This document shows, piece after piece, positions 12,854 to 21,971 of a stretch of 64,000 bases of DNA. Below the pieces are notes generated by a model. That model searched no databases, had not been told where the DNA came from, and worked only from the letters and a program-made list of their open reading frames with translations. Within the stretch, counting starts at the first letter, position 1. Every line of letters starts with the position of its first letter. Source of the DNA: Desulfobacterales bacterium (lineage in GTDB: Bacteria > Desulfobacterota > Desulfobacteria > Desulfobacterales > UBA5852); NCBI GenBank assembly GCA_963674755.2, contig CAXXVS010000001.1, positions 576,001 through 640,000 on the forward strand, read 5' to 3'. The translations under genes were made by a program, and so were the position numbers.

Positions 12854-14425
12854 TCAGACAATCGTGAGGCTTTTGGGGCCTGCGGACATGCGATCACCGT
12901 TTGCCCGGTCGCGCCGCACAGCTTCCGGCAGGTTTTCCAGGATGTCCCGGGCCGTGACGCCGTCGGCGCCCTTGGCCGCGGCCGCGATGTCGCCCGCCGC
13001 GCCGTGCAGGGCGACGCCCTTGCAGACCGCCATGTCGAGGGGCAGACCGGCGCCCCGCATGGTCGCAATGACCCCGGTCAGGACATCGCCCGCCCCGGCC
13101 GTCGCCATGGCATGGCTGCCGGTGGTGTTGATGAAGATCCGCCCGTCCGGGCAGCCGATGAGCGAATGAGCGCCTTTGAGCACCATATAGGCGTTCAGCC
13201 GGGCGGCGGTTTGCTGCAGGATGCCCACGGGGTCCTCCCGGATGGCCGCCACCGTCAGGCCCGTTAAACGGGCCATCTCGCCTAAGTGTGGGGTGAGTAC
13301 CGTTTCACCGGGCCGGTCCGCCAGGCTTTCCCTGGTCGTGCTGACGGCGGTCAGCCCGTCGCCGTCGATGAGCAGCGGCTGCGGCAGGGTTTCCACCAGG
13401 CGTCGGACGAGCCGGTCGGTCTCCTCGTCCCGGGACAGACCCGGACCGATGACCACCATGTCCCGGGAGCGGGCGGCCTCGATCAGGCGGTCCAGATTAT
13501 CGAGGGCCAGGCTGCCGGCCGCGGTTGCGACCTGGGGCAGGAAGACCAGCTCCGGTCCCAGGGCGCCGATGGTCGGCACGATGGCGGCCGGCGCGGCCAG
13601 GCGGGCATACCCCCCGCCGGATTTGAGCAGGGCCATGGCGGCCAGGAAGGGCGCCCCGAAATAGCCGGCGGCCCCGCAGATGAACAAAGCGTCGCCGAAG
13701 GAGCCCTTGTGACCGGCCGGATCACGGTCCGGCAGGGGCGGGGGCGCATTGAGGGCGATGGCCAGTTCGGAGGCCCGGGTCAGGGCCGGTGGAAATGAAA
13801 TGCGGGTCACAAAAAGGTCGCCTCCGTTGGCAAAGCCGGGATAGAGCAAATTGCCGACCTTGGGCAGCCCGAAGGTAACCGTCAGATCGGCCCGGATGGC
13901 GGTTCCCATGACCTGCCCGGTGTCGCCGTGGATGCCCGAGGGAATGTCCAGACTGACCACCGGCCGCCGGCTGGCATTGACACGTTCGATAACTTCGGCA
14001 TAGGCGCCCCGCACGGGCTTGGAGAGACCGGTGCCGAGAATAGCGTCCACCACGAGCTGGCCGGCGGCCAGGTCTTCATCCAGGGCCTCCGGCGAGGCAT
14101 AGGGCTGCACCGGAATGGCCAGACTTTGAATGATTTTCCAGTTGACCGCGGCTGCGCCCCGGTAGCGTTCCGGATCCCCCAGCAGCACCACTTTCGGCTT
14201 GCCGCCATCGGAGAAGATCTTACGGGCCACCACCAGACCGTCGCCGCCGTTGTTGCCGCTGCCGCAGAGCACCAGGATGCGCCGGCCGTTCACCGGGAAG
14301 CGCTCCCCCAGGACCCGGTAGGCGGCCAAGCCGGCGTTTTCCATCAAAAGGGTCTCGGGAATACCGTAGTCTTCGATGGCGCGGCGGTCCATGGCGCGCA
14401 TTTGGGAAACCGTAGCGATTTTCAT
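12854..14425 (-). CDS. nnr: Bifunctional NAD(P)H-hydrate epimerase/dehydratase (YjeF/Nnr)
   Basis: LMENAG, CGSGNNGGDG, DIPSG, GHKGSFG, TPHLGE, MATAGAGDVL. Confidence 0.93.
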   Translation of the reverse strand: MKIATVSQMRAMDRRAIEDYGIPETLLMENAGLAAYRVLGERFPVNGRRILVLCGSGNNGGDGLVVARKIFSDGGKPKVVLLGDPERYRGAAAVNWKIIQSLAIPVQPYASPEALDEDLAAGQLVVDAILGTGLSKPVRGAYAEVIERVNASRRPVVSLDIPSGIHGDTGQVMGTAIRADLTVTFGLPKVGNLLYPGFANGGDLFVTRISFPPALTRASELAIALNAPPPLPDRDPAGHKGSFGDALFICGAAGYFGAPFLAAMALLKSGGGYARLAAPAAIVPTIGALGPELVFLPQVATAAGSLALDNLDRLIEAARSRDMVVIGPGLSRDEETDRLVRRLVETLPQPLLIDGDGLTAVSTTRESLADRPGETVLTPHLGEMARLTGLTVAAIREDPVGILQQTAARLNAYMVLKGAHSLIGCPDGRIFINTTGSHAMATAGAGDVLTGVIATMRGAGLPLDMAVCKGVALHGAAGDIAAAAKGADGVTARDILENLPEAVRRDRANGDRMSAGPKSLTIV

Positions 14426-14558
14426 GATATTTTTCCTCAGGCGGCATAGCTGCCAGGCCCATAGATAATGGACGTCCGGTGCGGACGCTGATGATTTCCC
14501 CTACCAGACAAGCTTCGGGACGATCAAGGGAAAAGGGGATCGCCGGATGTCGAGATGC

Positions 14559-14587
14559 TTGACAAACCGGGCGGCCTCGGCTATGGG
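14559..14587 (+). promoter_or_regulatory. Putative sigma70 promoter of the leader-iorAB operon
   Basis: Perfect TTGACA, 17-nt spacer, weak -10 TATGGG. Confidence 0.5.
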
Positions 14588-14610
14588 CAAATGACTTGAG
14601 AGGAATCGGG

Positions 14611-14658
14611 ATGCAAATGATCATGGGCTACGGCAACTGGTGGTGGCCGGCAGTTTGA
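14611..14658 (+). CDS. Trp-rich leader peptide MQMIMGYGNWWWPAV (trpL-like)
   Basis: GAGAGGA RBS; three consecutive TGG codons just before the stop; overlaps attenuator helix 1. Confidence 0.85.
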   Translation: MQMIMGYGNWWWPAV

Positions 14659-14751
14659 AGCGGCTCGCCACCAGACCCTACATCCTTTAAAGAACAGGGC
14701 TGTGAGCGGCTTCAGCGTGAGGCGTTGGAGAAGTTCATGGCTCTTTTTTTT
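14637..14751 (+). promoter_or_regulatory. Ribosome-mediated transcription attenuator (helices 1:2, 2:3, 3:4 plus U-tract)
   Basis: CTGGTGGTG pairs with CGCCACCAG; GCTCGC..CCCT pairs with AGGG..GTGAGC; terminator AGGGCTGTGAGC-CTTCAGCG / CGTTGGAG-GTTCATGGCTCT followed by T8. Confidence 0.82.
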
Positions 14752-14894
14752 GACGGCTTCATAAATCGCTCAAAATCGGCGCTGTGCGGCCTTCGGCCCC
14801 GCGCTAGCGGTATTCCTCGTCGCGGCGGCGTTCTGATGCACGCCGCTCTCCTCGGAATTCGCACGCCGTATCTTGAACGGTTTATGAAGCCGTC
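14752..14894. repeat. Palindromic intergenic element (GACGG...CCGTC subtype)
   Basis: GACGGCTTCATAAA...TTTATGAAGCCGTC terminal IR; central CGGCGTTCTGATGCACGCCG hairpin; aligns with 20629-20755. Confidence 0.85.
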
Positions 14895-15022
14895 GGAATA
14901 GTTACGCTCCTCGAAACTCATTCCTTGGAGGAGCACCACGGGTTCGTCCCCTTCTGCTATCACCCGGTTGGATTCGGTGGGACCGATCGCACGAAGAAAC
15001 TGGAACGAGGAAATTTCAAACG

Positions 15023-16831
15023 ATGCGCCGATTGATGTTGGGCAATGAAGCGATCGCCCGGGGACTGCTGGAAAACGGCTGCGCCATGGCCACCTCCTAC
15101 CCCGGCACGCCCGCTTCGGAAATCTTGGCTTCCCTGGCGGCCATGCGCACGGCCGAGCAGGTCGACATGCACGTGCAGTGGGCCGTCAACGAAAAGGTGG
15201 CCTTCGAAATCGCCTATGCCGGGGCCATGAGCGGTTTGCGCACGGCGGTCAGCATGAAGCAGGTGGGCCTCAACGTGGCCTCGGACCCCTTGATGAGCGC
15301 AGCCTACATGGGCACCAAGGGCGGGTTCGTGGTGATCAGCGCCGACGATCCCGGTCCCCACTCGTCCCAGACCGAGCAGGACAGCCGCATGATGGCCATG
15401 ATGGCCAAGATCCCGGTCCTGGATCCGGATTCCCCCCAACAGGCCAAAGCCATGGTGGCGCTGGCTTTCGATCTGTCGGAGGCCTTTGAGATCCCGGTCA
15501 TGGTGCGGCCCACCACCCGGGTATGCCACGCCCGCCAGGACATCGCCCTGGATGCCCTGACGCCCCTTGGTCGTCAGCCGGTATTCGAGCGCAATCCCGC
15601 CCGCTGGGCGGCCACGCCCAAGTTTCGGTACCATCTGCACGGGGAGCTGGAAGACAAGCTGGCCAAGATCGCGGCCTATGAGGCCACCGCTCCGGTTCAG
15701 CTCAACCCCCACGTCACCGGCCCCCAGGCCGTGGTCGCGGCCGGTGTGGCCCTGGCCCACACGATGGAAATCATGCGGGGGCTGGGGCTGTGGGATACTC
15801 TGCCCATCTACCAGGTGCGCCAGCCCTATCCCCTGCACACGGACTTCATCGCCCGGCTGGAAGACGCCCATGCCTCGCTCCTGGTGATCGAAGAGACCAC
15901 GGGCATGATCGAGATGCAGTTGGGGGACCGCCATCGGGTGGCCGGCAAACAAAGCGGGGCCGTGCCCCGGGTGGGTGAGCTGGCGCCGGAAGCCATCGAA
16001 GACATTTTATGCCGTTTCAGCGGACGATCCCGTACCGTCGCGCGGCCGCCGGCCGTGGCCGGCCGACGGCCGACCCTGTGTGCCGGATGCCCCCACCGGG
16101 CCAGTTTTTTTGCCATCAAGAAAGCGGCCCCCCGGGCCATCTACACGAGTGATATCGGCTGCTACACCCTGGGACTGAACCTGGGGGCCGTGGATACGGT
16201 GTTGTGCATGGGGGCCGCCATCAGCCAGGCGGCCGGCTTCTATCACGCGTTCAAGGACCAGGCCAAACCCCGGGACGTGGTGGCCACGATCGGGGATTCC
16301 ACCTTCTTCCATGCCGGTTTGCCGGCCCTGGTGGATGCGGTGGCCCATCGGGTCAAGATGGTGCTGGTCATCCTGGACAACCGTACCACGGCCATGACCG
16401 GCAACCAGCCCACTCCGGAAAGCGGGTGGGGGGCCTGCGGCGAACCGTTGCAGGCCGTCAACCTGGAACAATTGGTGCGCGGCTGCGGCGTCGACTTCGT
16501 GCGGGTGGCCGACCCCTACCGGACCGAGGCCCTGATCAAGGTTCTCAAGGAAGCCCTGGCCCATAGCCGGGAGACCGCAGCGCCGGCGGTGGTCATCTCC
16601 CGGGCCCCCTGTCTGATCGACAAACAGGCCACGCTCACCAAAAGCACGGGCGCGCCCCCTGTTGTAAGCGATGTGTGCGACGGCTGCGGATATTGCGTCC
16701 AGCAGTTCGAGTGCCCGGCCATCGTCATGGCCGAAGACGAATCCCATGTGACCATCGACTCCGTGCTGTGCAGCGGATGCGGTGTGTGCGCGCAGGTCTG
16801 CCCGAAGCATGCCATCCGAGGCGACGCTTAG
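15023..16831 (+). CDS. iorA: Indolepyruvate:ferredoxin oxidoreductase alpha subunit
   Basis: [64 protein letters not shown], two C-terminal 4Fe-4S motifs. Confidence 0.95.
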
Positions 16832-16879
16832 GGCCGGTGATCGTTTTGACGAAAGAAGATCGAGAGTGAAGGAAGTCCT

Positions 16880-17434
16880 ATGACGGAAACGACGCGCCAG
16901 CAGGTGGTCATCAGTGGAGTGGGAGGCCAGGGGGTGCTGTTCGTTACACGCCTGCTGGCGGAAGCCGCCATTCGCAAAGGGTTGCCGGTCCTGACATCGG
17001 AAACCCATGGCATGGCCCAGCGGGGCGGTACGGTTATCTCCCACTTGAAGGTGGGCGATTTTACCAGCCCCCTGATCCGTAGCGGGCATGCCGATGTCCT
17101 ATTGGCCCTGAAGGCCGAAGGCGCCGCCCAGCACGGTCATTATCTGCATGACGGGGGATGGGCGCTGGTCAATGACCGTCACGGCAAAGAGGATACGGCA
17201 GGCGGTTGCTGGCAACGGCTGGATGCCGATCGCCTGGCGCAGGATAGCGGCAACCCGCGGGCCGTCAACCTGGTGGTCCTGGGCGGGGCGCTGGACCAAT
17301 CGGCGCCGTTGCCGCTGTTTTGCACCTTGAACGATATTCAGGCGGTTCTGGCAGCGCGCCTGGCCGCCAAACCGGATTTGTTGGAGATGTCCCGCAAGGC
17401 GCTGGCGGCAGGGTTGCAGGCGGTTGCCCCCTGA
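16880..17434 (+). CDS. iorB: Indolepyruvate:ferredoxin oxidoreductase beta subunit
   Basis: GVGGQG and SETHGMAQRGGTV. Confidence 0.92.
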   Translation: MTETTRQQVVISGVGGQGVLFVTRLLAEAAIRKGLPVLTSETHGMAQRGGTVISHLKVGDFTSPLIRSGHADVLLALKAEGAAQHGHYLHDGGWALVNDRHGKEDTAGGCWQRLDADRLAQDSGNPRAVNLVVLGGALDQSAPLPLFCTLNDIQAVLAARLAAKPDLLEMSRKALAAGLQAVAP

Positions 17435-17534
17435 GGGACCCGTAAGAGGGGAAAAGCCCGCGAGTGCCCATCATTAATCGCAGTCACACCGGTGCCCGGC
17501 ACCGGTGTACTGAAGGGGTGGAGGAGAGCGAACG

Positions 17535-18554
17535 ATGAGAAGAAAATCAGTTGCATGGACGACGCTGGGCCTGCTCGTTGGGGTGCTGAGCCTGCTTTTG
17601 ATGCCGGGGGCGGTCAGTGCCGGGACGATCACCTTGAGCTATGCCAATTTCCCGCCGGCCCCGACCTTTCCCTGTGTCCAGATGGAGCGCTGGAAGACCG
17701 AGGTGGAAAAGCGCACCAACGGGCAGGTGGCCATCAAGACCTATCCCGGCGGCACCCTGCTGGGCGCCAAGGAAATGATGGACGGCGTGATTGCCGGCCA
17801 GGCCGACATCGGCAACCTGTGCATGGCCTACCAGCCCGGCCGCTTCATCGTGACCAACGCCACCAGCCTGCCGCTGGGTATCCCCAACGCCCGTACGGGC
17901 AGCCTGGTTCTCTGGGCGCTTTATAACAAATACCACCCCAAGGCCTTTAGCCAAGTGAAGGTGCTCACCATGTTTACCACGGCACCGGCCAATATCATGT
18001 CGAAAACCCCCGTACGCAGTCTCGACGATATCAAAGGCCTGGATCTGCGCGCTTCCGGCGGGGCCGCCCAGATCCTGAAAGCCTGGGGCGCCAACCAGGT
18101 GGGCATGCCCATGTCGGCCACGCCGGAAGCCTTGCAGAAAGGTGTCGTACAGGGGCTTTTTTCCTCCCTGGAAGTCATGAAAGACCTCAAATTTGCTGAA
18201 ATTTGCCGCTATGTCACCATGACGGACACCGTCATCTACCCCTTTGCCGTGGTCATGAACATGGACCGCTGGCAGGCCCTGCCGCCGGATGTCCAGAAGG
18301 TGATGGACGACCTGGCCGAGGAACAGGCCGAATGGACCGGTGCTTACATGGATCAGCATGTGAAGGAAGCCATGGATTGGTCGGTCAAGGAATATAAGGT
18401 GGACGTCATCCAGCTGGACGCCAAGGCCAAGGCCGCCTGGGACCAGAAGCTGAAGTTCATCACGGACCAGTGGATGGCCGACGCCAAGGCCAAGGGGTTT
18501 CCCGCCGAAGCCATCGTGACCGACATCCGGAAGCTGACGGAACAATATCAATAG
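17535..18554 (+). CDS. dctP: TRAP transporter substrate-binding protein
   Basis: Signal peptide; EVEKRTNG..YPGGTL, DDIKGLDLR, EALQKGVVQG, WQALPPDVQ. Confidence 0.92.
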   Translation: MRRKSVAWTTLGLLVGVLSLLLMPGAVSAGTITLSYANFPPAPTFPCVQMERWKTEVEKRTNGQVAIKTYPGGTLLGAKEMMDGVIAGQADIGNLCMAYQPGRFIVTNATSLPLGIPNARTGSLVLWALYNKYHPKAFSQVKVLTMFTTAPANIMSKTPVRSLDDIKGLDLRASGGAAQILKAWGANQVGMPMSATPEALQKGVVQGLFSSLEVMKDLKFAEICRYVTMTDTVIYPFAVVMNMDRWQALPPDVQKVMDDLAEEQAEWTGAYMDQHVKEAMDWSVKEYKVDVIQLDAKAKAAWDQKLKFITDQWMADAKAKGFPAEAIVTDIRKLTEQYQ

Positions 18555-18570
18555 AAACATCAGGCCAGCG

Positions 18571-18605
18571 GGGCCGCAATCGTCGCCGGCGATTGCGGCC
18601 CTTTT
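18571..18605 (+). terminator. Stem-loop after dctP (partial terminator or mRNA stabiliser)
   Basis: GGGCCGCAATCG-TCGCCGG-CGATTGCGGCCC followed by TTTT. Confidence 0.6.
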
Positions 18606-18619
18606 GTTGAGGGGGCACC

Positions 18620-19111
18620 ATGGCAGTCCTGGAGCGCGTCACGCGTTTGCTGAACCGGCTGTTCGTTTTTTGCGGCGGCATGTTCCTGGTGGGCATGATC
18701 CTGCTCACCTGTGCCAATATCGCCTGCCGGGCCGTGTGGGAGCCGATTCGGGGCACGTTCGAACTGATGGGCTATTTCGGGGCCGTAGCCACCGCCGCGG
18801 CCCTGGCCTTTACCCAGATCAACCACGGCCATATCGCCGTCAATGTGTTGATCAACCACTTTTCCCCCAAGACCCGCCGATGCCTGAACGCCTTCAACAA
18901 CGCGACCTGCGCCCTTTTCTTCGCCGTGATCGCCTGGCAGATCGGATTGAAGGCTCATGGGTTCATGCAGACGGGTGAGGTGTCGGAAACCCTGCGGGTG
19001 ATTTTTTATCCCTTCACCTATATGGTGGCCGCCGGCTGCGGGGTGATCGCGCTGGTGTTTGTGGTGGATCTGCTCCGGCCGCTGCGTTCCGGCCCGGGAG
19101 ACCCGCCATGA
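18620..19111 (+). CDS. dctQ: TRAP transporter small permease
   Basis: Four TM helices, GHIAVN motif, position between dctP and dctM. Confidence 0.9.
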   Translation: MAVLERVTRLLNRLFVFCGGMFLVGMILLTCANIACRAVWEPIRGTFELMGYFGAVATAAALAFTQINHGHIAVNVLINHFSPKTRRCLNAFNNATCALFFAVIAWQIGLKAHGFMQTGEVSETLRVIFYPFTYMVAAGCGVIALVFVVDLLRPLRSGPGDPP

Positions 19112-20412
19112 GCGCGGCCGTCGTGGGACTTCTGGGCATCGCCGTTCTGCTGGCGGTGTTGTTCCTGCTGGGCATGCCGGTGGGTATCGCCATGGCCATG
19201 GTGGGCTTTGGCGGCTTCTGCTACCTCGTGTCCTTCAATGCGGGCCTCCACATGCTCAGTTCGGTCTTCTGGGACACCTTTTCCACCTACGGCCTGACCG
19301 TGATTCCCCTGTTTATTTTCATGGGGCAGGTGGCCTTTTATTCCGGCGTCAACGAAAAGCTTTACCGGGCGGCCTATAAATGGGTGGGGCATATCCGCGG
19401 CGGGATTGCCATGGCCACGGTGCTGGCCTGCTCCGCCTTTTCCGCCATATGCGGGTCCAATGCCGCCACGGCCGCCACCATGACCACGGTGGCCCTGCCC
19501 CAGATGCGCAAATACCACTATCACCCCAAGTTGAGCACCGGCGCCATTGCCTGCGGCTCTACCCTGGGGGTGGTGATTCCGCCCAGCGTGGTCCTGATCG
19601 TCATCGGGTTGTCTACCGAGCAGTCCATTGCCCGGCTCTTCTACGGCGGCATCGGTGCCGGGATGTTGCTGACCCTGACCCTGATGGCCACGGTGGTTGC
19701 GGTGTGCCGCCGGCATCCGGACTGGGGCCCCGTGGGCCCCCCCACCACCTGGGGGGAGCGCTGGCGGTCGCTCTACGGGGCGTTGGAGATGGTGGTATTG
19801 TTTCTGCTGGTGATGCTGGGCCTGTTCTTCGGCGTGTTCACGCCCACGGAGGCCGGTGCGGCCGGAAGCCTGCTGGCGCTTCTGATTGCCGGGGTCCAGG
19901 GCCGCCTGAGCTGGAAGGGGTTTCTGGCATCGGTTAGGGATACCCTGAAAATTTCCTGCATGGTGATCGTGATCGTGACGGGCGCCATGGTGTTTGGCCG
20001 GTTTTTAGCCGTCACCCGCATTCCCTTCGACATCGCCGACTGGGTGGTGGGGCTGCCGATTCCCAAGGTCGCGGTGATGGGGATTATCTTTCTGATCTAT
20101 ATCATCGGCGGGGCGGTTATGGATGCCCTGGCGCTGCTGCTGATCACCATCCCGATTTTCTTTCCGGTGGCCTCTGAACTGGGATATGACCCCATCTGGT
20201 TCGGGGTGACCATTACGGTGGTGACCACCCTGGGGGCGGTGACACCGCCCGTGGGGGCCACGACCTACGTCGTGGGAGGCATGGCCGGTGATATCCCCCT
20301 GGAGGATGTCTTCCGGGGGGTGGCCTATTTCCTGCCGGCCTATATCGTCTGCATCCTGATTTTGATGATGGTGCCGGAGATCGTTACGTTTATGCCGCAT
20401 CTTTTACGGTGA
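19108..20412 (+). CDS. dctM: TRAP transporter large permease
   Basis: IPLFIFMG, GSNAATAA, TLGVVIPPS, FTPTEAG, TPPVG. Confidence 0.93.
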   Translation: MSAAVVGLLGIAVLLAVLFLLGMPVGIAMAMVGFGGFCYLVSFNAGLHMLSSVFWDTFSTYGLTVIPLFIFMGQVAFYSGVNEKLYRAAYKWVGHIRGGIAMATVLACSAFSAICGSNAATAATMTTVALPQMRKYHYHPKLSTGAIACGSTLGVVIPPSVVLIVIGLSTEQSIARLFYGGIGAGMLLTLTLMATVVAVCRRHPDWGPVGPPTTWGERWRSLYGALEMVVLFLLVMLGLFFGVFTPTEAGAAGSLLALLIAGVQGRLSWKGFLASVRDTLKISCMVIVIVTGAMVFGRFLAVTRIPFDIADWVVGLPIPKVAVMGIIFLIYIIGGAVMDALALLLITIPIFFPVASELGYDPIWFGVTITVVTTLGAVTPPVGATTYVVGGMAGDIPLEDVFRGVAYFLPAYIVCILILMMVPEIVTFMPHLLR

Positions 20413-20554
20413 CGCGGATAGCCGGTCGCCGAAGCGGGCTCACCCGCTGTCAAAAAAAGCTTGAAGGGATGGCCGTGGGCTGATAGGGACGTTTGAAAAA
20501 TTTTTGAAAGCCATGTCATCCCACCGTTTGCGGCGGGGTGTCCGGGACCGATTT

Positions 20555-20628
20555 GAGCCCGAACCGTTTTCTTCAACCTGTGCGAGCAATTGGTAGCCTC
20601 CACGGAACGGTTCGGGCTCTCCTTTTTT
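20555..20628 (+). terminator. 14-bp stem with long loop and T-tract (terminator, possibly of a small RNA)
   Basis: GAGCCCGAACCGTT...AACGGTTCGGGCTC-TCCTTTTTT. Confidence 0.55.
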
Positions 20629-20755
20629 AGACGGGTTCGTAAAACAACCAATCTCCGCGTTACGCGGCATTTTGAATTGCTGCGGCGTACCTGATGTACG
20701 CCTCACAATTCAAAACACCGCAAGCCTTGACCTTGGCCGTTTTACGAACCCGTCT
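20629..20755. repeat. Palindromic intergenic element (GACGG...CCGTC subtype)
   Basis: AGACGGGTTCGTAAAA...TTTTACGAACCCGTCT; inner stem TTTTGAATTG/CAATTCAAAA; GGCGTAC-CTGAT-GTACGCC hairpin; GCCTTG. Confidence 0.88.
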
Positions 20756-20832
20756 TTTTTCTGGGGTTAATGGGAACGCAAGGAACAGATCCACTTTCAG
20801 CGGTGGGTGTAATCCCGAAAGAAGAGGAATAG

Positions 20833-20978
20833 TGTACCCGCTTCAGAAATGAGGATTTTTAGTTCTGATCAAGGCCCGACGAGGGTTTGTGGTGAGGCGT
20901 ACGCCAGTACGCCGCAGCCGCAGAACCCGAGGAGAACGAAGATCAGGGCTAAAAATCCTCATTTCCGGAGCGGGTACA
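20833..20978. repeat. Palindromic intergenic element (reverse orientation)
   Basis: About 30-bp terminal IR TGTACCCGCTTCAGAAATGAGGATTTTTAG / CTAAAAATCCTCATTTCCGGAGCGGGTACA; central GGCGTAC..GTACGCC. Confidence 0.88.
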
Positions 20979-20981
20979 AGG

Positions 20982-21971
20982 TTACCCGCCGATGGAGGAC
21001 ATGCGGGCGTCTACTTTTTGGCCGCCGGTCACCAGGCTGTGGGCCATGGGTTTGAGGCGGGCACCTTCCAGGAAGATGGCGGCCAGTTCCTTGTCGGAGG
21101 CGCCGGCCCGCAACGGACCAAGCAGATCGTATTCCCGGTTGGAAAGCAGGCAGGGGCGCAGTTTGCCGCCGGCGGTCAGGCGCAGCCGGTTGCAGGTGTC
21201 GCAAAAATGATGGCTCATGGGACTGATGAAGCCCACCTCGCCGGGCGCCCCGGGATAGCGGAAGCGGCGGGCGGGTCCGTCGTTTTCGCCGCGGGGTACC
21301 GGTTCCAGCGGGGCGATCCGCTCGACCCGGCGGCGCACTTCATCATTGGGCATGTAGGGATCGCCGGGCAGATTGGAATTGCCCATGGGCATATACTCGA
21401 TGAAACGCACTTGCAGGGGGCGGGTAAGGGTCAGGGCGGCGATATCCTCGAATTCGTCGTCATTGATGCCCCGCATGGCCACGACGTTGAGCTTGATGGG
21501 GTGAAAGCCCATGGCCTGGGCGGCTTCAATGGCCTCCCAGACCTGCTGGAAATGATCCCCCCCGGTGATTTCCTGGAAGCGTTGGCGTTGCAGCGTGTCG
21601 AGACTGATATTGAGCCGTTTGATACCGGCCGTCTGCAACGCGTCCAGATAGGGCTTGAGGAGCACCGCATTGGTGGTCAGGGCCATGTCGGTGAGGCCTT
21701 CCAACTGGCGGAGCTCTTCCAGAAAAGGCAGGAGATCGCGGCGGACCAGGGGCTCGCCGCCCGTAATGCGGACTTTGGTAATCCCCAGGGTGATGCCGAT
21801 GCGCAGGATACGCAGGATTTCCTCGTAGCGCAGGATTTCCTCATGGGCCATGCGGGGGATGCTTTCCCGCGGGACACAATAGGCGCAGCGCAGATTGCAG
21901 CGGTCGGTCACCGATACACGCAGGTAATTGAGCCGGCGGCGATAGCGATCATGTAACAAGGGTTTATGCAA
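20982..21971 (-). CDS. moaA: GTP 3',8-cyclase MoaA
   Basis: YLRVSVTDRCNLRCAYC, TGGEP, FCDTCNRLRLT, C-terminal MSSIGG; TTG start after AAAGGA. Confidence 0.95.
   Translation of the reverse strand: MHKPLLHDRYRRRLNYLRVSVTDRCNLRCAYCVPRESIPRMAHEEILRYEEILRILRIGITLGITKVRITGGEPLVRRDLLPFLEELRQLEGLTDMALTTNAVLLKPYLDALQTAGIKRLNISLDTLQRQRFQEITGGDHFQQVWEAIEAAQAMGFHPIKLNVVAMRGINDDEFEDIAALTLTRPLQVRFIEYMPMGNSNLPGDPYMPNDEVRRRVERIAPLEPVPRGENDGPARRFRYPGAPGEVGFISPMSHHFCDTCNRLRLTAGGKLRPCLLSNREYDLLGPLRAGASDKELAAIFLEGARLKPMAHSLVTGGQKVDARMSSIGG

What the first reader, a model, noticed from the sequence alone, without database searches (positions are those of the whole stretch)
15023..20412. IOR plus TRAP as a probable indole-acid uptake and tryptophan salvage pathway
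Seen: iorA-iorB-dctPQM co-oriented behind a Trp-starvation attenuator. Known: IOR is reversible, and methanococci use it to carboxylate aryl-acetyl-CoA to aryl-pyruvates for aromatic amino acid synthesis; TRAP systems import organic acids. Inference: induction by Trp shortage fits the biosynthetic direction (indoleacetate import, CoA activation, reductive carboxylation, transamination to Trp) rather than the catabolic role usually annotated. Caveat: no aryl-CoA ligase or aminotransferase is in this operon.
Basis: inference. Interest (0 to 1): 0.72.

Follow-up and report, generated by a model that had tools for sequence, protein, structure and literature searches.

The report
Tryptophan-starvation switch on indole-acid salvage operon
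A sulfate-reducer-type bacterium places an aromatic-acid importer and a reversible carboxylating enzyme behind a switch that should turn them on when tryptophan runs short, which suggests it rebuilds tryptophan from scavenged indole acids such as the plant hormone auxin rather than burning them.

Summary
The five genes are real and co-oriented. The attenuator is real: a 13-codon leader with three Trp codons, protector, antiterminator and a covarying U-tailed terminator. DctP is the nearest relative of Desulfovibrio Dde_0634 (indole-acid ligands recalled, not seen). The genome makes Trp de novo, uses Trp leaders on trpE and DAHP synthase, and lacks the known indoleacetate-degradation genes. A sister lineage replaces the leader with a palindrome also found before trpE and trpB2, and has a TrpR-family gene. 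A more distant order puts its own Trp leader on the transporter alone. Induction by Trp shortage is therefore well supported (about 0.9). Indoleacetate to Trp through reverse IOR is inferred (about 0.62); 19 of 53 related operons show no Trp signal. The chemistry is known from methanococci, and iorAB-paaK was already listed as a tryptophan operon in Geobacter. The regulation seems undescribed in the library searched.

The parts
14559..14587 (+). Probable sigma-70 promoter (TTGACA, 17 nt, weak -10 starting TA)
   Evidence: Sequence; TGACAA and the TA are invariant in 11 aligned leaders. Not reported by the consensus scan, which listed a weaker site at 14596-14624. Inference.
14617..14658 (+). 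Leader peptide ORF MIMGYGNWWWPAV*, Trp codons at 14638-14646; in-frame ATGs also at 14611 and 14623
   Evidence: A and G of the start codon, the GGTGG core and TGA are invariant in 11 aligned leaders
14637..14674 (+). Protector hairpin 1:2 (Trp codons pair with 14666-14674)
   Evidence: -23.7 kcal/mol; 88.9% of cells paired in 11 leaders but no covariation above shuffles
14656..14714 (+). Antiterminator 2:3 (14656-14668 with 14702-14714)
   Evidence: Minimum-energy fold of stalled transcripts up to 14730; 95.5% paired, covariation only suggestive, 36 of 500 shuffles as high
14697..14751 (+). Intrinsic terminator 3:4 with U8 tail
   Evidence: -29.1 kcal/mol; 7 of 18 pairs change on both sides, 0 of 500 shuffles as high
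14752..14894 (.). Repeat element with 25-nt inverted ends (MITE-like) between terminator and iorA
   Evidence: 35 BLAST pieces in the genome, 3 of at least 100 nt including itself; not present in this form in the relatives' leaders printed
15023..16831 (+). iorA, indolepyruvate:ferredoxin oxidoreductase alpha subunit
   Evidence: TIGR03336 above cut-off; ThDP-binding, proximal Fe-S and two ferredoxin-type Cys motifs present (motif roles recalled)
16880..17434 (+). iorB, beta subunit
   Evidence: NF004916 E 2.5e-64, 216.7 bits, under the cut-off of 227
17535..18554 (+). dctP, TRAP solute-binding protein of the Dde_0634 / Desal_3247 group
   Evidence: PDB 4N6D E 7.5e-123, 4PGN/4PGP and 4NAP E about 1e-100, next hit 1.3e-35; model pLDDT 96.8; 4NAP Z 47.5, rmsd 1.1, 309 aligned, 49% identity
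18570..18612 (+). Hairpin with T-rich tail between dctP and dctQ (possible partial terminator or mRNA stabiliser)
   Evidence: 15-pair stem; role inferred
18620..19111 (+). dctQ, TRAP small permease
   Evidence: PF04290
19108..20412 (+). dctM, TRAP large permease
   Evidence: TIGR00786 above cut-off

Best explanation
This is a tryptophan-precursor salvage operon switched on by Trp shortage. With little charged tRNA-Trp the ribosome stalls on the three Trp codons, the antiterminator forms and RNA polymerase reads into iorAB-dctPQM. With enough Trp the ribosome reaches the stop codon, covers segment 2 and the terminator forms (anatomy shown, switching inferred). DctPQM imports indole acids, indole-3-acetate and probably indole-3-pyruvate (inferred). 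An AMP-forming aryl-CoA ligase, encoded elsewhere in this genome but inside the operon in many relatives, makes indoleacetyl-CoA. IorAB carboxylates it with CO2 and reduced ferredoxin to indolepyruvate, and a general aminotransferase gives Trp (all inferred). It spares the de novo pathway and is not the cell's only route to Trp.
For: Leader and hairpins. Trp-rich leaders before 14 of 53 related ior operons, against 134 of 3839 control ORFs. The same genome has Trp leaders on trpE and DAHP synthase; 14 of 15 family trpE loci have one. 20 of 53 operons, one IorA clade, carry TGTTTCT-N6-AGAAACA instead, 8 with a TrpR-family gene in front. That site is also before trpE in 5 of 5 such genomes, before trpB2 in 2, and before 0 of 6 trpE paralogues. 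In the order of G328, 13 of 17 stand-alone orthologous transporters have a Trp leader with a different terminator, against 0 of 30 distant iorA genes. A ligase lies in 32 of 55 ior loci, and the same subfamily is in trans in 14 of 17 family genomes. DctP and ligase relatives also occur in 13 of 80 loci with Mo-enzyme, hydantoinase or B12-mutase genes, resembling the indoleacetate cluster with ligase IaaB and mutase IaaGH (PMC8360864 passages). Those catabolic genes were not found in this genome (positive control). Aryl acids feed aromatic amino-acid synthesis in M. maripaludis (PMC4162585 passage citing Porat 2004).
Against: No expression, binding or enzyme data; the one RNA run laid is contigs only. 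19 of 53 related operons show neither signal, including two in the same genus. This genome's ligase has no Trp leader and groups, on a long branch of a quick tree, with ligases of the catabolic-type clusters, not with the 35-row ior-operon clade; 3 of 17 family genomes lack it. In the order of G328 the transporter is Trp-regulated without a co-regulated IOR, and the best IorA there is only 36-42% identical. The terminator is the equilibrium fold even with a stalled ribosome (-34.4 kcal/mol for the full leader), so read-through depends on folding order. The TrpR-family protein is under the TIGR01321 cut-off and its best solved relative is a histidine repressor. A different IorAB is induced on phenylpyruvate in Desulfococcus multivorans (PMC5109826 passages).
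Confidence: 0.62

Rival explanations
1. The transporter is the Trp-relevant part: it imports indole-3-pyruvate or tryptophan itself, which needs only an aminotransferase or nothing. IorAB is a passenger or serves another aryl acid.
For: Transporter alone carries a Trp leader in 13 of 17 loci of another order while 0 of 30 iorA genes there do. The ligase is outside this operon and unregulated. Indolepyruvate and D-Trp are recalled as ligands of 4PGN and 4NAP.
Against: iorAB stays with this transporter in 55 of 80 loci, 32 with the ligase, under two different Trp-linked signals. An IOR running forward would destroy imported indolepyruvate during Trp shortage (inference). Orthologues of DctP serve indoleacetate-degradation-like clusters.
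Confidence: 0.2
2. General aryl-acid salvage: phenylacetate, hydroxyphenylacetate and indoleacetate are all carboxylated to Phe, Tyr and Trp precursors. Trp codons act as a proxy for aromatic amino-acid shortage, as on the DAHP synthase leader.
For: The methanococcal route covers aryl acids generally. The next-best structures bind cinnamate, coumarate and 4-hydroxyphenylacetate. The common-pathway DAHP synthase also has a Trp leader here.
Against: Aligned leaders conserve Trp codons, not Phe or Tyr codons. The other aromatic-acid binders are only 21-28% identical. The operon ligases are separate from canonical PaaK (40-42% identity).
Confidence: 0.1
3. Catabolic operon as usually annotated: indolepyruvate and indoleacetate converge on indoleacetyl-CoA for degradation, and the leader is vestigial or Trp-inducible.
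For: IOR is described as oxidative in peptide fermentation and in phenylpyruvate use by D. multivorans. DctP and ligase relatives occur in catabolic-type clusters. 19 of 53 operons lack a Trp signal.
Against: Tandem Trp codons upstream of an intrinsic terminator with a competing 2:3 helix are the starvation-type layout (established knowledge of trpL). The terminator covaries. The cluster's hydantoinase B was not found in 17 of 17 family genomes; the best Mo subunit here is 29% and the best mutase 35%; tryptophanase was not found. ior-type and iaa-type contexts never coincided in 80 loci.
Confidence: 0.06

Closest known systems
Aryl-acid route to aromatic amino acids in Methanococcus maripaludis (IorA2B2; Porat et al. 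2004, seen only as cited in PMC4162585)
   Same: IorAB used to build aromatic amino acids from aryl acids; needs CoA activation and transamination.
   Different: Bacterial; coupled to a TRAP importer and a Trp-specific switch; flux not shown here.
Dde_0634 TRAP binding protein of Desulfovibrio alaskensis G20 (PDB 4NAP, 4PGN, 4PGP) and Desal_3247 (4N6D)
   Same: 49% and 57% identity over 309 residues; Z 47.5, rmsd 1.1 to 4NAP. 'Indole acids' are listed among the TRAP ligands of Vetting 2015 in PMC5812351.
   Different: That Dde_0634 itself bound indolepyruvate, indoleacetate and D-Trp is recalled; the paper was not held and entry titles were cut before the ligand. Pocket residues were not compared.
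iorAB-paaK of Geobacter, listed as a 'tryptophan' biosynthetic operon with a conserved 5' sequence (PMC2700814, Table 2)
   Same: Same enzyme pair and the same assignment to tryptophan synthesis.
   Different: The section read gives no leader peptide, attenuator, transporter or mechanism.
E. coli trpL ribosome-mediated attenuator (Rfam Trp_leader; details recalled)
   Same: Short ORF with tandem Trp codons; 1:2, 2:3 and 3:4 helices; U-tailed terminator.
   Different: No Rfam match at E up to 1; controls a salvage and transport operon; the stop codon lies in the antiterminator helix.
iaa cluster for anaerobic indoleacetate degradation (Aromatoleum; IaaB ligase, IaaGH mutase; PMC8360864)
   Same: Uptake and CoA activation of indoleacetate; relatives of this DctP and ligase sit in similar clusters.
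   Different: The downstream catabolic genes were not found in this genome; IorAB stands in their place.
TrpR regulons of Gammaproteobacteria (PMC5343134) and HisR (PMC9413887)
   Same: In the sister lineage a PF01371 protein and a 20-bp palindrome accompany trpE, trpB2 and this operon.
   Different: PMC5343134 reports TrpR only in gammaproteobacteria among its genomes. The effector is untested. The window's family has no PF01371 match (0 of 17).

Membership tests
Trp leader-peptide attenuator (trpL type) | Short ORF with tandem Trp codons, conserved in relatives | tested here: met
Trp leader-peptide attenuator (trpL type) | Intrinsic terminator with U-run before the first gene | tested here: met
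   (0 of 500 shuffles)
Trp leader-peptide attenuator (trpL type) | Antiterminator overlapping the terminator, freed by a stall at the Trp codons | tested here: met
   95.5% paired in 11 leaders, covariation not above shuffles
Trp leader-peptide attenuator (trpL type) | Trp-dependent read-through | not testable with these tools
   Only contig data available
Rfam Trp_leader family | Match to the covariance model | tested here: not met
   No match at E up to 1 in 14400-21000
IorAB (TIGR03336 / TIGR03334) | Alpha subunit above the curated cut-off, with ThDP and Fe-S motifs | tested here: met
IorAB (TIGR03336 / TIGR03334) | Beta subunit above a curated cut-off | tested here: inconclusive
   Best 216.7 vs 227 (NF004916); 110.8 vs 205.8 (TIGR03334); all top hits are IorB models
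IorAB (TIGR03336 / TIGR03334) | Aryl-pyruvate specificity and direction of flux | not testable with these tools
   No close solved structure; best PDB hit E 4e-8
Dde_0634-type indole-acid TRAP | Nearest characterised relative by sequence and fold | tested here: met
Dde_0634-type indole-acid TRAP | Binds indole acids | not testable with these tools
   Ligands recalled; context evidence only
Aryl-acid to amino-acid salvage route | Aryl-CoA ligase available | tested here: met
   G000:C2:965790-967043, 56-65% to ligases from these loci vs 40-42% for canonical PaaK; in trans, unregulated, not in the operon-ligase clade; substrate untested
Aryl-acid to amino-acid salvage route | Aromatic aminotransferase available | tested here: inconclusive
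   15 PF00155 matches; one resembles archaeal multiple-substrate aminotransferases; none assigned
iaa indoleacetate-degradation cluster | Hydantoinase, Mo-enzyme and B12 mutase orthologues in the genome | tested here: not met
   positive control; genome 97% complete. Queries were cluster genes from my loci, not the Aromatoleum proteins.
TrpR regulon (sister lineage only) | PF01371 protein, with a shared site at trp genes | tested here: met
   (4 of 5 further genomes)
TrpR regulon (sister lineage only) | Tryptophan is the effector and the protein binds the site | not testable with these tools
   Under the TIGR01321 cut-off; best solved relative is HisR

The most novel reading that the evidence does not exclude
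Many sulfate-reducing and related anaerobes assimilate environmental indole-3-acetate (auxin) into tryptophan by TRAP uptake, CoA activation and CO2-fixing reverse IOR. The module is tied to Trp status by three separate switches: one attenuator family, a second attenuator on the transporter alone, and an undescribed TrpR-family regulon with the operator TGTTTCT-N6-AGAAACA. The same transporter and ligase are reused for indoleacetate degradation elsewhere.
Probability: 0.5. Interest if true: 0.7.

Novelty: new variant of a known kind. Interest (0 to 1): 0.52.

Why it matters
IorAB in anaerobic bacteria is mostly read as catabolic, and metabolic reconstructions from metagenomes follow that. A Trp-starvation switch gives a sequence-level marker for the biosynthetic direction and makes the question directly testable in cultured Desulfobacter or Desulfocicer strains. 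It would also name a fate for indoleacetate in anoxic sediments and soils, and add a candidate TrpR-family regulon outside Gammaproteobacteria. Each chemical step has precedent, so this extends known biology.

Tried and rejected
Vetting 2015 was not held; a recalled PMC id gave an unrelated paper. Ten literature searches listed no paper on an attenuator or TrpR site at iorAB or this TRAP; the library lacks most subscription journals, and I opened no supplements (those of PMC2700814 and PMC5343134 may bear on novelty). Single-sequence folding failed (pLDDT 35.6). The Rfam scan gave only three weak, sub-threshold hits. The plasmid search found two distant Thermus proteins. One RNA run held 0.14 of the words as contigs, with no cover of the leader; contigs cannot show expression. 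The careful ligase tree did not finish; the quick tree is cited. Genome-wide counts of the palindrome at 2 mismatches are close to the reversed control (43 vs 50, 31 vs 28, 31 vs 18, 51 vs 45, 50 vs 32), so only its position counts; the motif was derived from the ior loci, so 20 of 53 is circular and trpE/trpB2 are the real test. 0 of 24 catabolic-context dctP genes have a Trp signal, but dctP is often internal there, so this is a weak control. Rejected: Trp auxotrophy, since trpEGDCF, trpBA and trpB2 are present; and my early note that C2:965790 is the direct orthologue of the operon ligase (one search does not support it).
Full report
Observation. iorA (15023-16831), iorB (16880-17434), dctP (17535-18554), dctQ (18620-19111) and dctM (19108-20412) are co-oriented with gaps of 48, 100, 65 and -4 nt, between a divergent NAD(P)HX-repair gene and a convergent moaA. 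IorA passes its family cut-off; IorB falls just under. Named relatives are mostly Desulfobacterales, so the host is probably one (inference).

The switch. Upstream lies a 13-codon ORF with three Trp codons (14617-14658). Folding gives a protector (-23.7 kcal/mol), a terminator with eight U (-29.1) and an antiterminator that shares bases with both. With bases to 14657 masked, mimicking a stall on the Trp codons, the antiterminator is the best fold of transcripts up to 14730. With bases to 14672 masked, mimicking a ribosome at the stop, it cannot form. On the full leader the terminator wins in both cases, so control must be kinetic. I aligned 11 leaders, chosen by eye from the 18 related upstream regions printed plus the window. 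The terminator has 7 of 18 pairs changed on both sides, with 0 of 500 shuffles as high. The antiterminator is 95.5% paired with covariation not clearly above shuffles, and the protector shows none. Related sequences can beat shuffles without structure, so this supports but does not prove. Rfam has no match. A repeat element with inverted ends follows the U-run.

Genome context. The genome (97% complete) has trpEGDCF, trpBA and trpB2, so the operon is not the only route to Trp. trpE has its own Trp-rich leader, as do 14 of 15 family trpE loci with upstream sequence. A DAHP synthase has one too. A second iorAB (39% identical) and a second related TRAP (37%) lie elsewhere. No TrpR-family gene was found in 17 of 17 family genomes. 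Tryptophanase was not found, nor the hydantoinase B of indoleacetate-degradation-like clusters (0 of 17; three control genomes matched at E below 1e-247).

The transporter. DctP's nearest solved relatives are Desal_3247 and Dde_0634, well above the rest. I recall Dde_0634 as binding indole-3-pyruvate, indole-3-acetate and D-Trp; I could confirm only that Vetting 2015 reported 'indole acids' as TRAP ligands (PMC5812351 passage). Of the best 80 of 514 related loci, 55 carry iorA or iorB, 13 carry Mo-enzyme, hydantoinase or B12-mutase genes, none carry both, and 12 carry neither, several being short. The second set resembles the iaa cluster (PMC8360864 passages; the match of individual genes is my inference), which points to indoleacetate as a cargo.

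The missing ligase. 32 of those 55 ior loci contain a PaaK-like ligase, usually between iorB and dctP. In this genome the best match is C2:965790-967043 (56-65%, against 40-42% for canonical PaaK). Such a gene exists in 14 of 17 family genomes and in 5 of 5 other genomes whose operon lacks it. Against a neat story: it has no clear Trp leader (one weak two-Trp ORF among 17 loci with upstream sequence), and a quick tree places it with ligases of the catabolic-type clusters rather than the ior-operon clade. An AMP-forming ligase works only towards the thioester (established knowledge), which fits acid uptake followed by carboxylation. Fifteen class I/II aminotransferases are candidates for the last step.

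Regulation across relatives. Among 53 ior operons with at least 400 nt upstream (8 duplicate loci and 1 short locus dropped), 14 have a leader with three or more Trp in six codons, 20 have the palindrome TGTTTCT-N6-AGAAACA within 2 mismatches, none has both at that stringency, and 19 have neither. Control rates in this genome are 134 and 7 of 3839 ORFs. The 20 form one IorA clade and so count as one event; 8 have a PF01371 gene directly in front, and 4 of 5 others tested have one elsewhere. The motif was derived from these loci. Its independent test is that it lies before trpE in 5 of 5 genomes of this group and before 0 of 6 trpE paralogues; of 7 further sites with at most one mismatch that I fetched from two genomes, 2 lie before trpB2 and 5 before other genes. 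The effector is unknown, and the protein's best solved relative is a histidine repressor. In the order of G328 (record titled Desulfohalobiaceae, so probably Desulfovibrionales), 28 of 81 genomes have the transporter. I fetched 20 of these: 13 of 17 stand-alone copies have a Trp leader, 10 of the 13 with a strong hairpin and U-run unlike the window's; 0 of 3 catabolic-context copies and 0 of 30 distant iorA genes do. Within the window's phylum only 1 of 30 other dctP loci has one.

Mechanism. Shown: genes, leader anatomy, conservation, context. Inferred: switching by Trp shortage (about 0.9), indole-acid cargo (about 0.85), and reverse IOR flux from indoleacetyl-CoA to indolepyruvate and Trp (overall about 0.62). 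The direction argument is that a forward-running IOR induced by Trp shortage would destroy the one-step precursor of Trp. The main rival is that the transporter alone matters.

Prior knowledge. M. maripaludis uses aryl acids for aromatic amino acids (PMC4162585 passages). Geobacter iorAB-paaK is tabulated as a tryptophan operon with a conserved 5' sequence (PMC2700814 section 9). IorAB is described as catabolic in D. multivorans and Ca. Nitrosocaldus (PMC5109826 and PMC5817080 passages). TrpR regulons were reported only in gammaproteobacteria (PMC5343134 passages). Ten searches listed no description of this attenuator or operator; no supplements were seen. Earlier AI notes of this scan describe similar leaders in other genomes; they are not independent support and show the pattern has been noted before in this scan.

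Verdict. Real, well-supported regulation and a plausible, unproven pathway: a new variant of known parts. Interest 0.52.

Noticed in passing
window 14752-14894 and 20629-20755: Two related repeat elements with 23-25 nt inverted ends flank the operon; 35 and 45 BLAST pieces in the genome.
   Followed up: partly
L246:712-1752 (G000:C2:571711), leader at C2:571425: A DAHP synthase has a Trp-rich leader and terminator; an aminotransferase resembling archaeal multiple-substrate enzymes lies 1.8 kb downstream on the other strand.
   Followed up: partly
L009:6606-9434; L083:10979-13777: trpBA is split from trpEGDCF and follows a GntR-family gene here and in Desulfobacter latus, where it lies just downstream of the ior-TRAP operon.
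   Followed up: no
L086, L091, L095, L097, L102, L111, L117, L118; L125-L129, L176, L179: Candidate TrpR-family regulon in Desulfobacter, Desulfobacterium and Desulfocicer with a 20-bp palindrome; 3 of 5 trpE genes there also keep a Trp leader.
   Followed up: partly
L037, L038, L041 upstream of iorA: Leader-like regions that have lost in-frame Trp runs (none in L037 and L038, one Trp in L041) although their trpE leaders are intact.
   Followed up: partly
L057, L062, L064, L073, L074: Nicotinate phosphoribosyltransferase sits between iorB and dctP; in L057, L062 and L073 a terminator-like hairpin follows the promoter with no leader ORF.
   Followed up: no
L247-L262: Stand-alone orthologous TRAP operons in the order of G328 carry longer Trp-rich leaders with a different terminator family.
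   Followed up: partly
L093, L098, L100, L106, L107, L115, L120, L145, L147, L148, L150-L152, L172: Indoleacetate-degradation-like clusters (Mo-enzyme, hydantoinase, B12 mutase, ligase) use this TRAP in many uncultured lineages.
   Followed up: partly
L114 upstream of the ligase: A ligase-dctPQM operon without iorAB keeps a Trp-rich leader.
   Followed up: no
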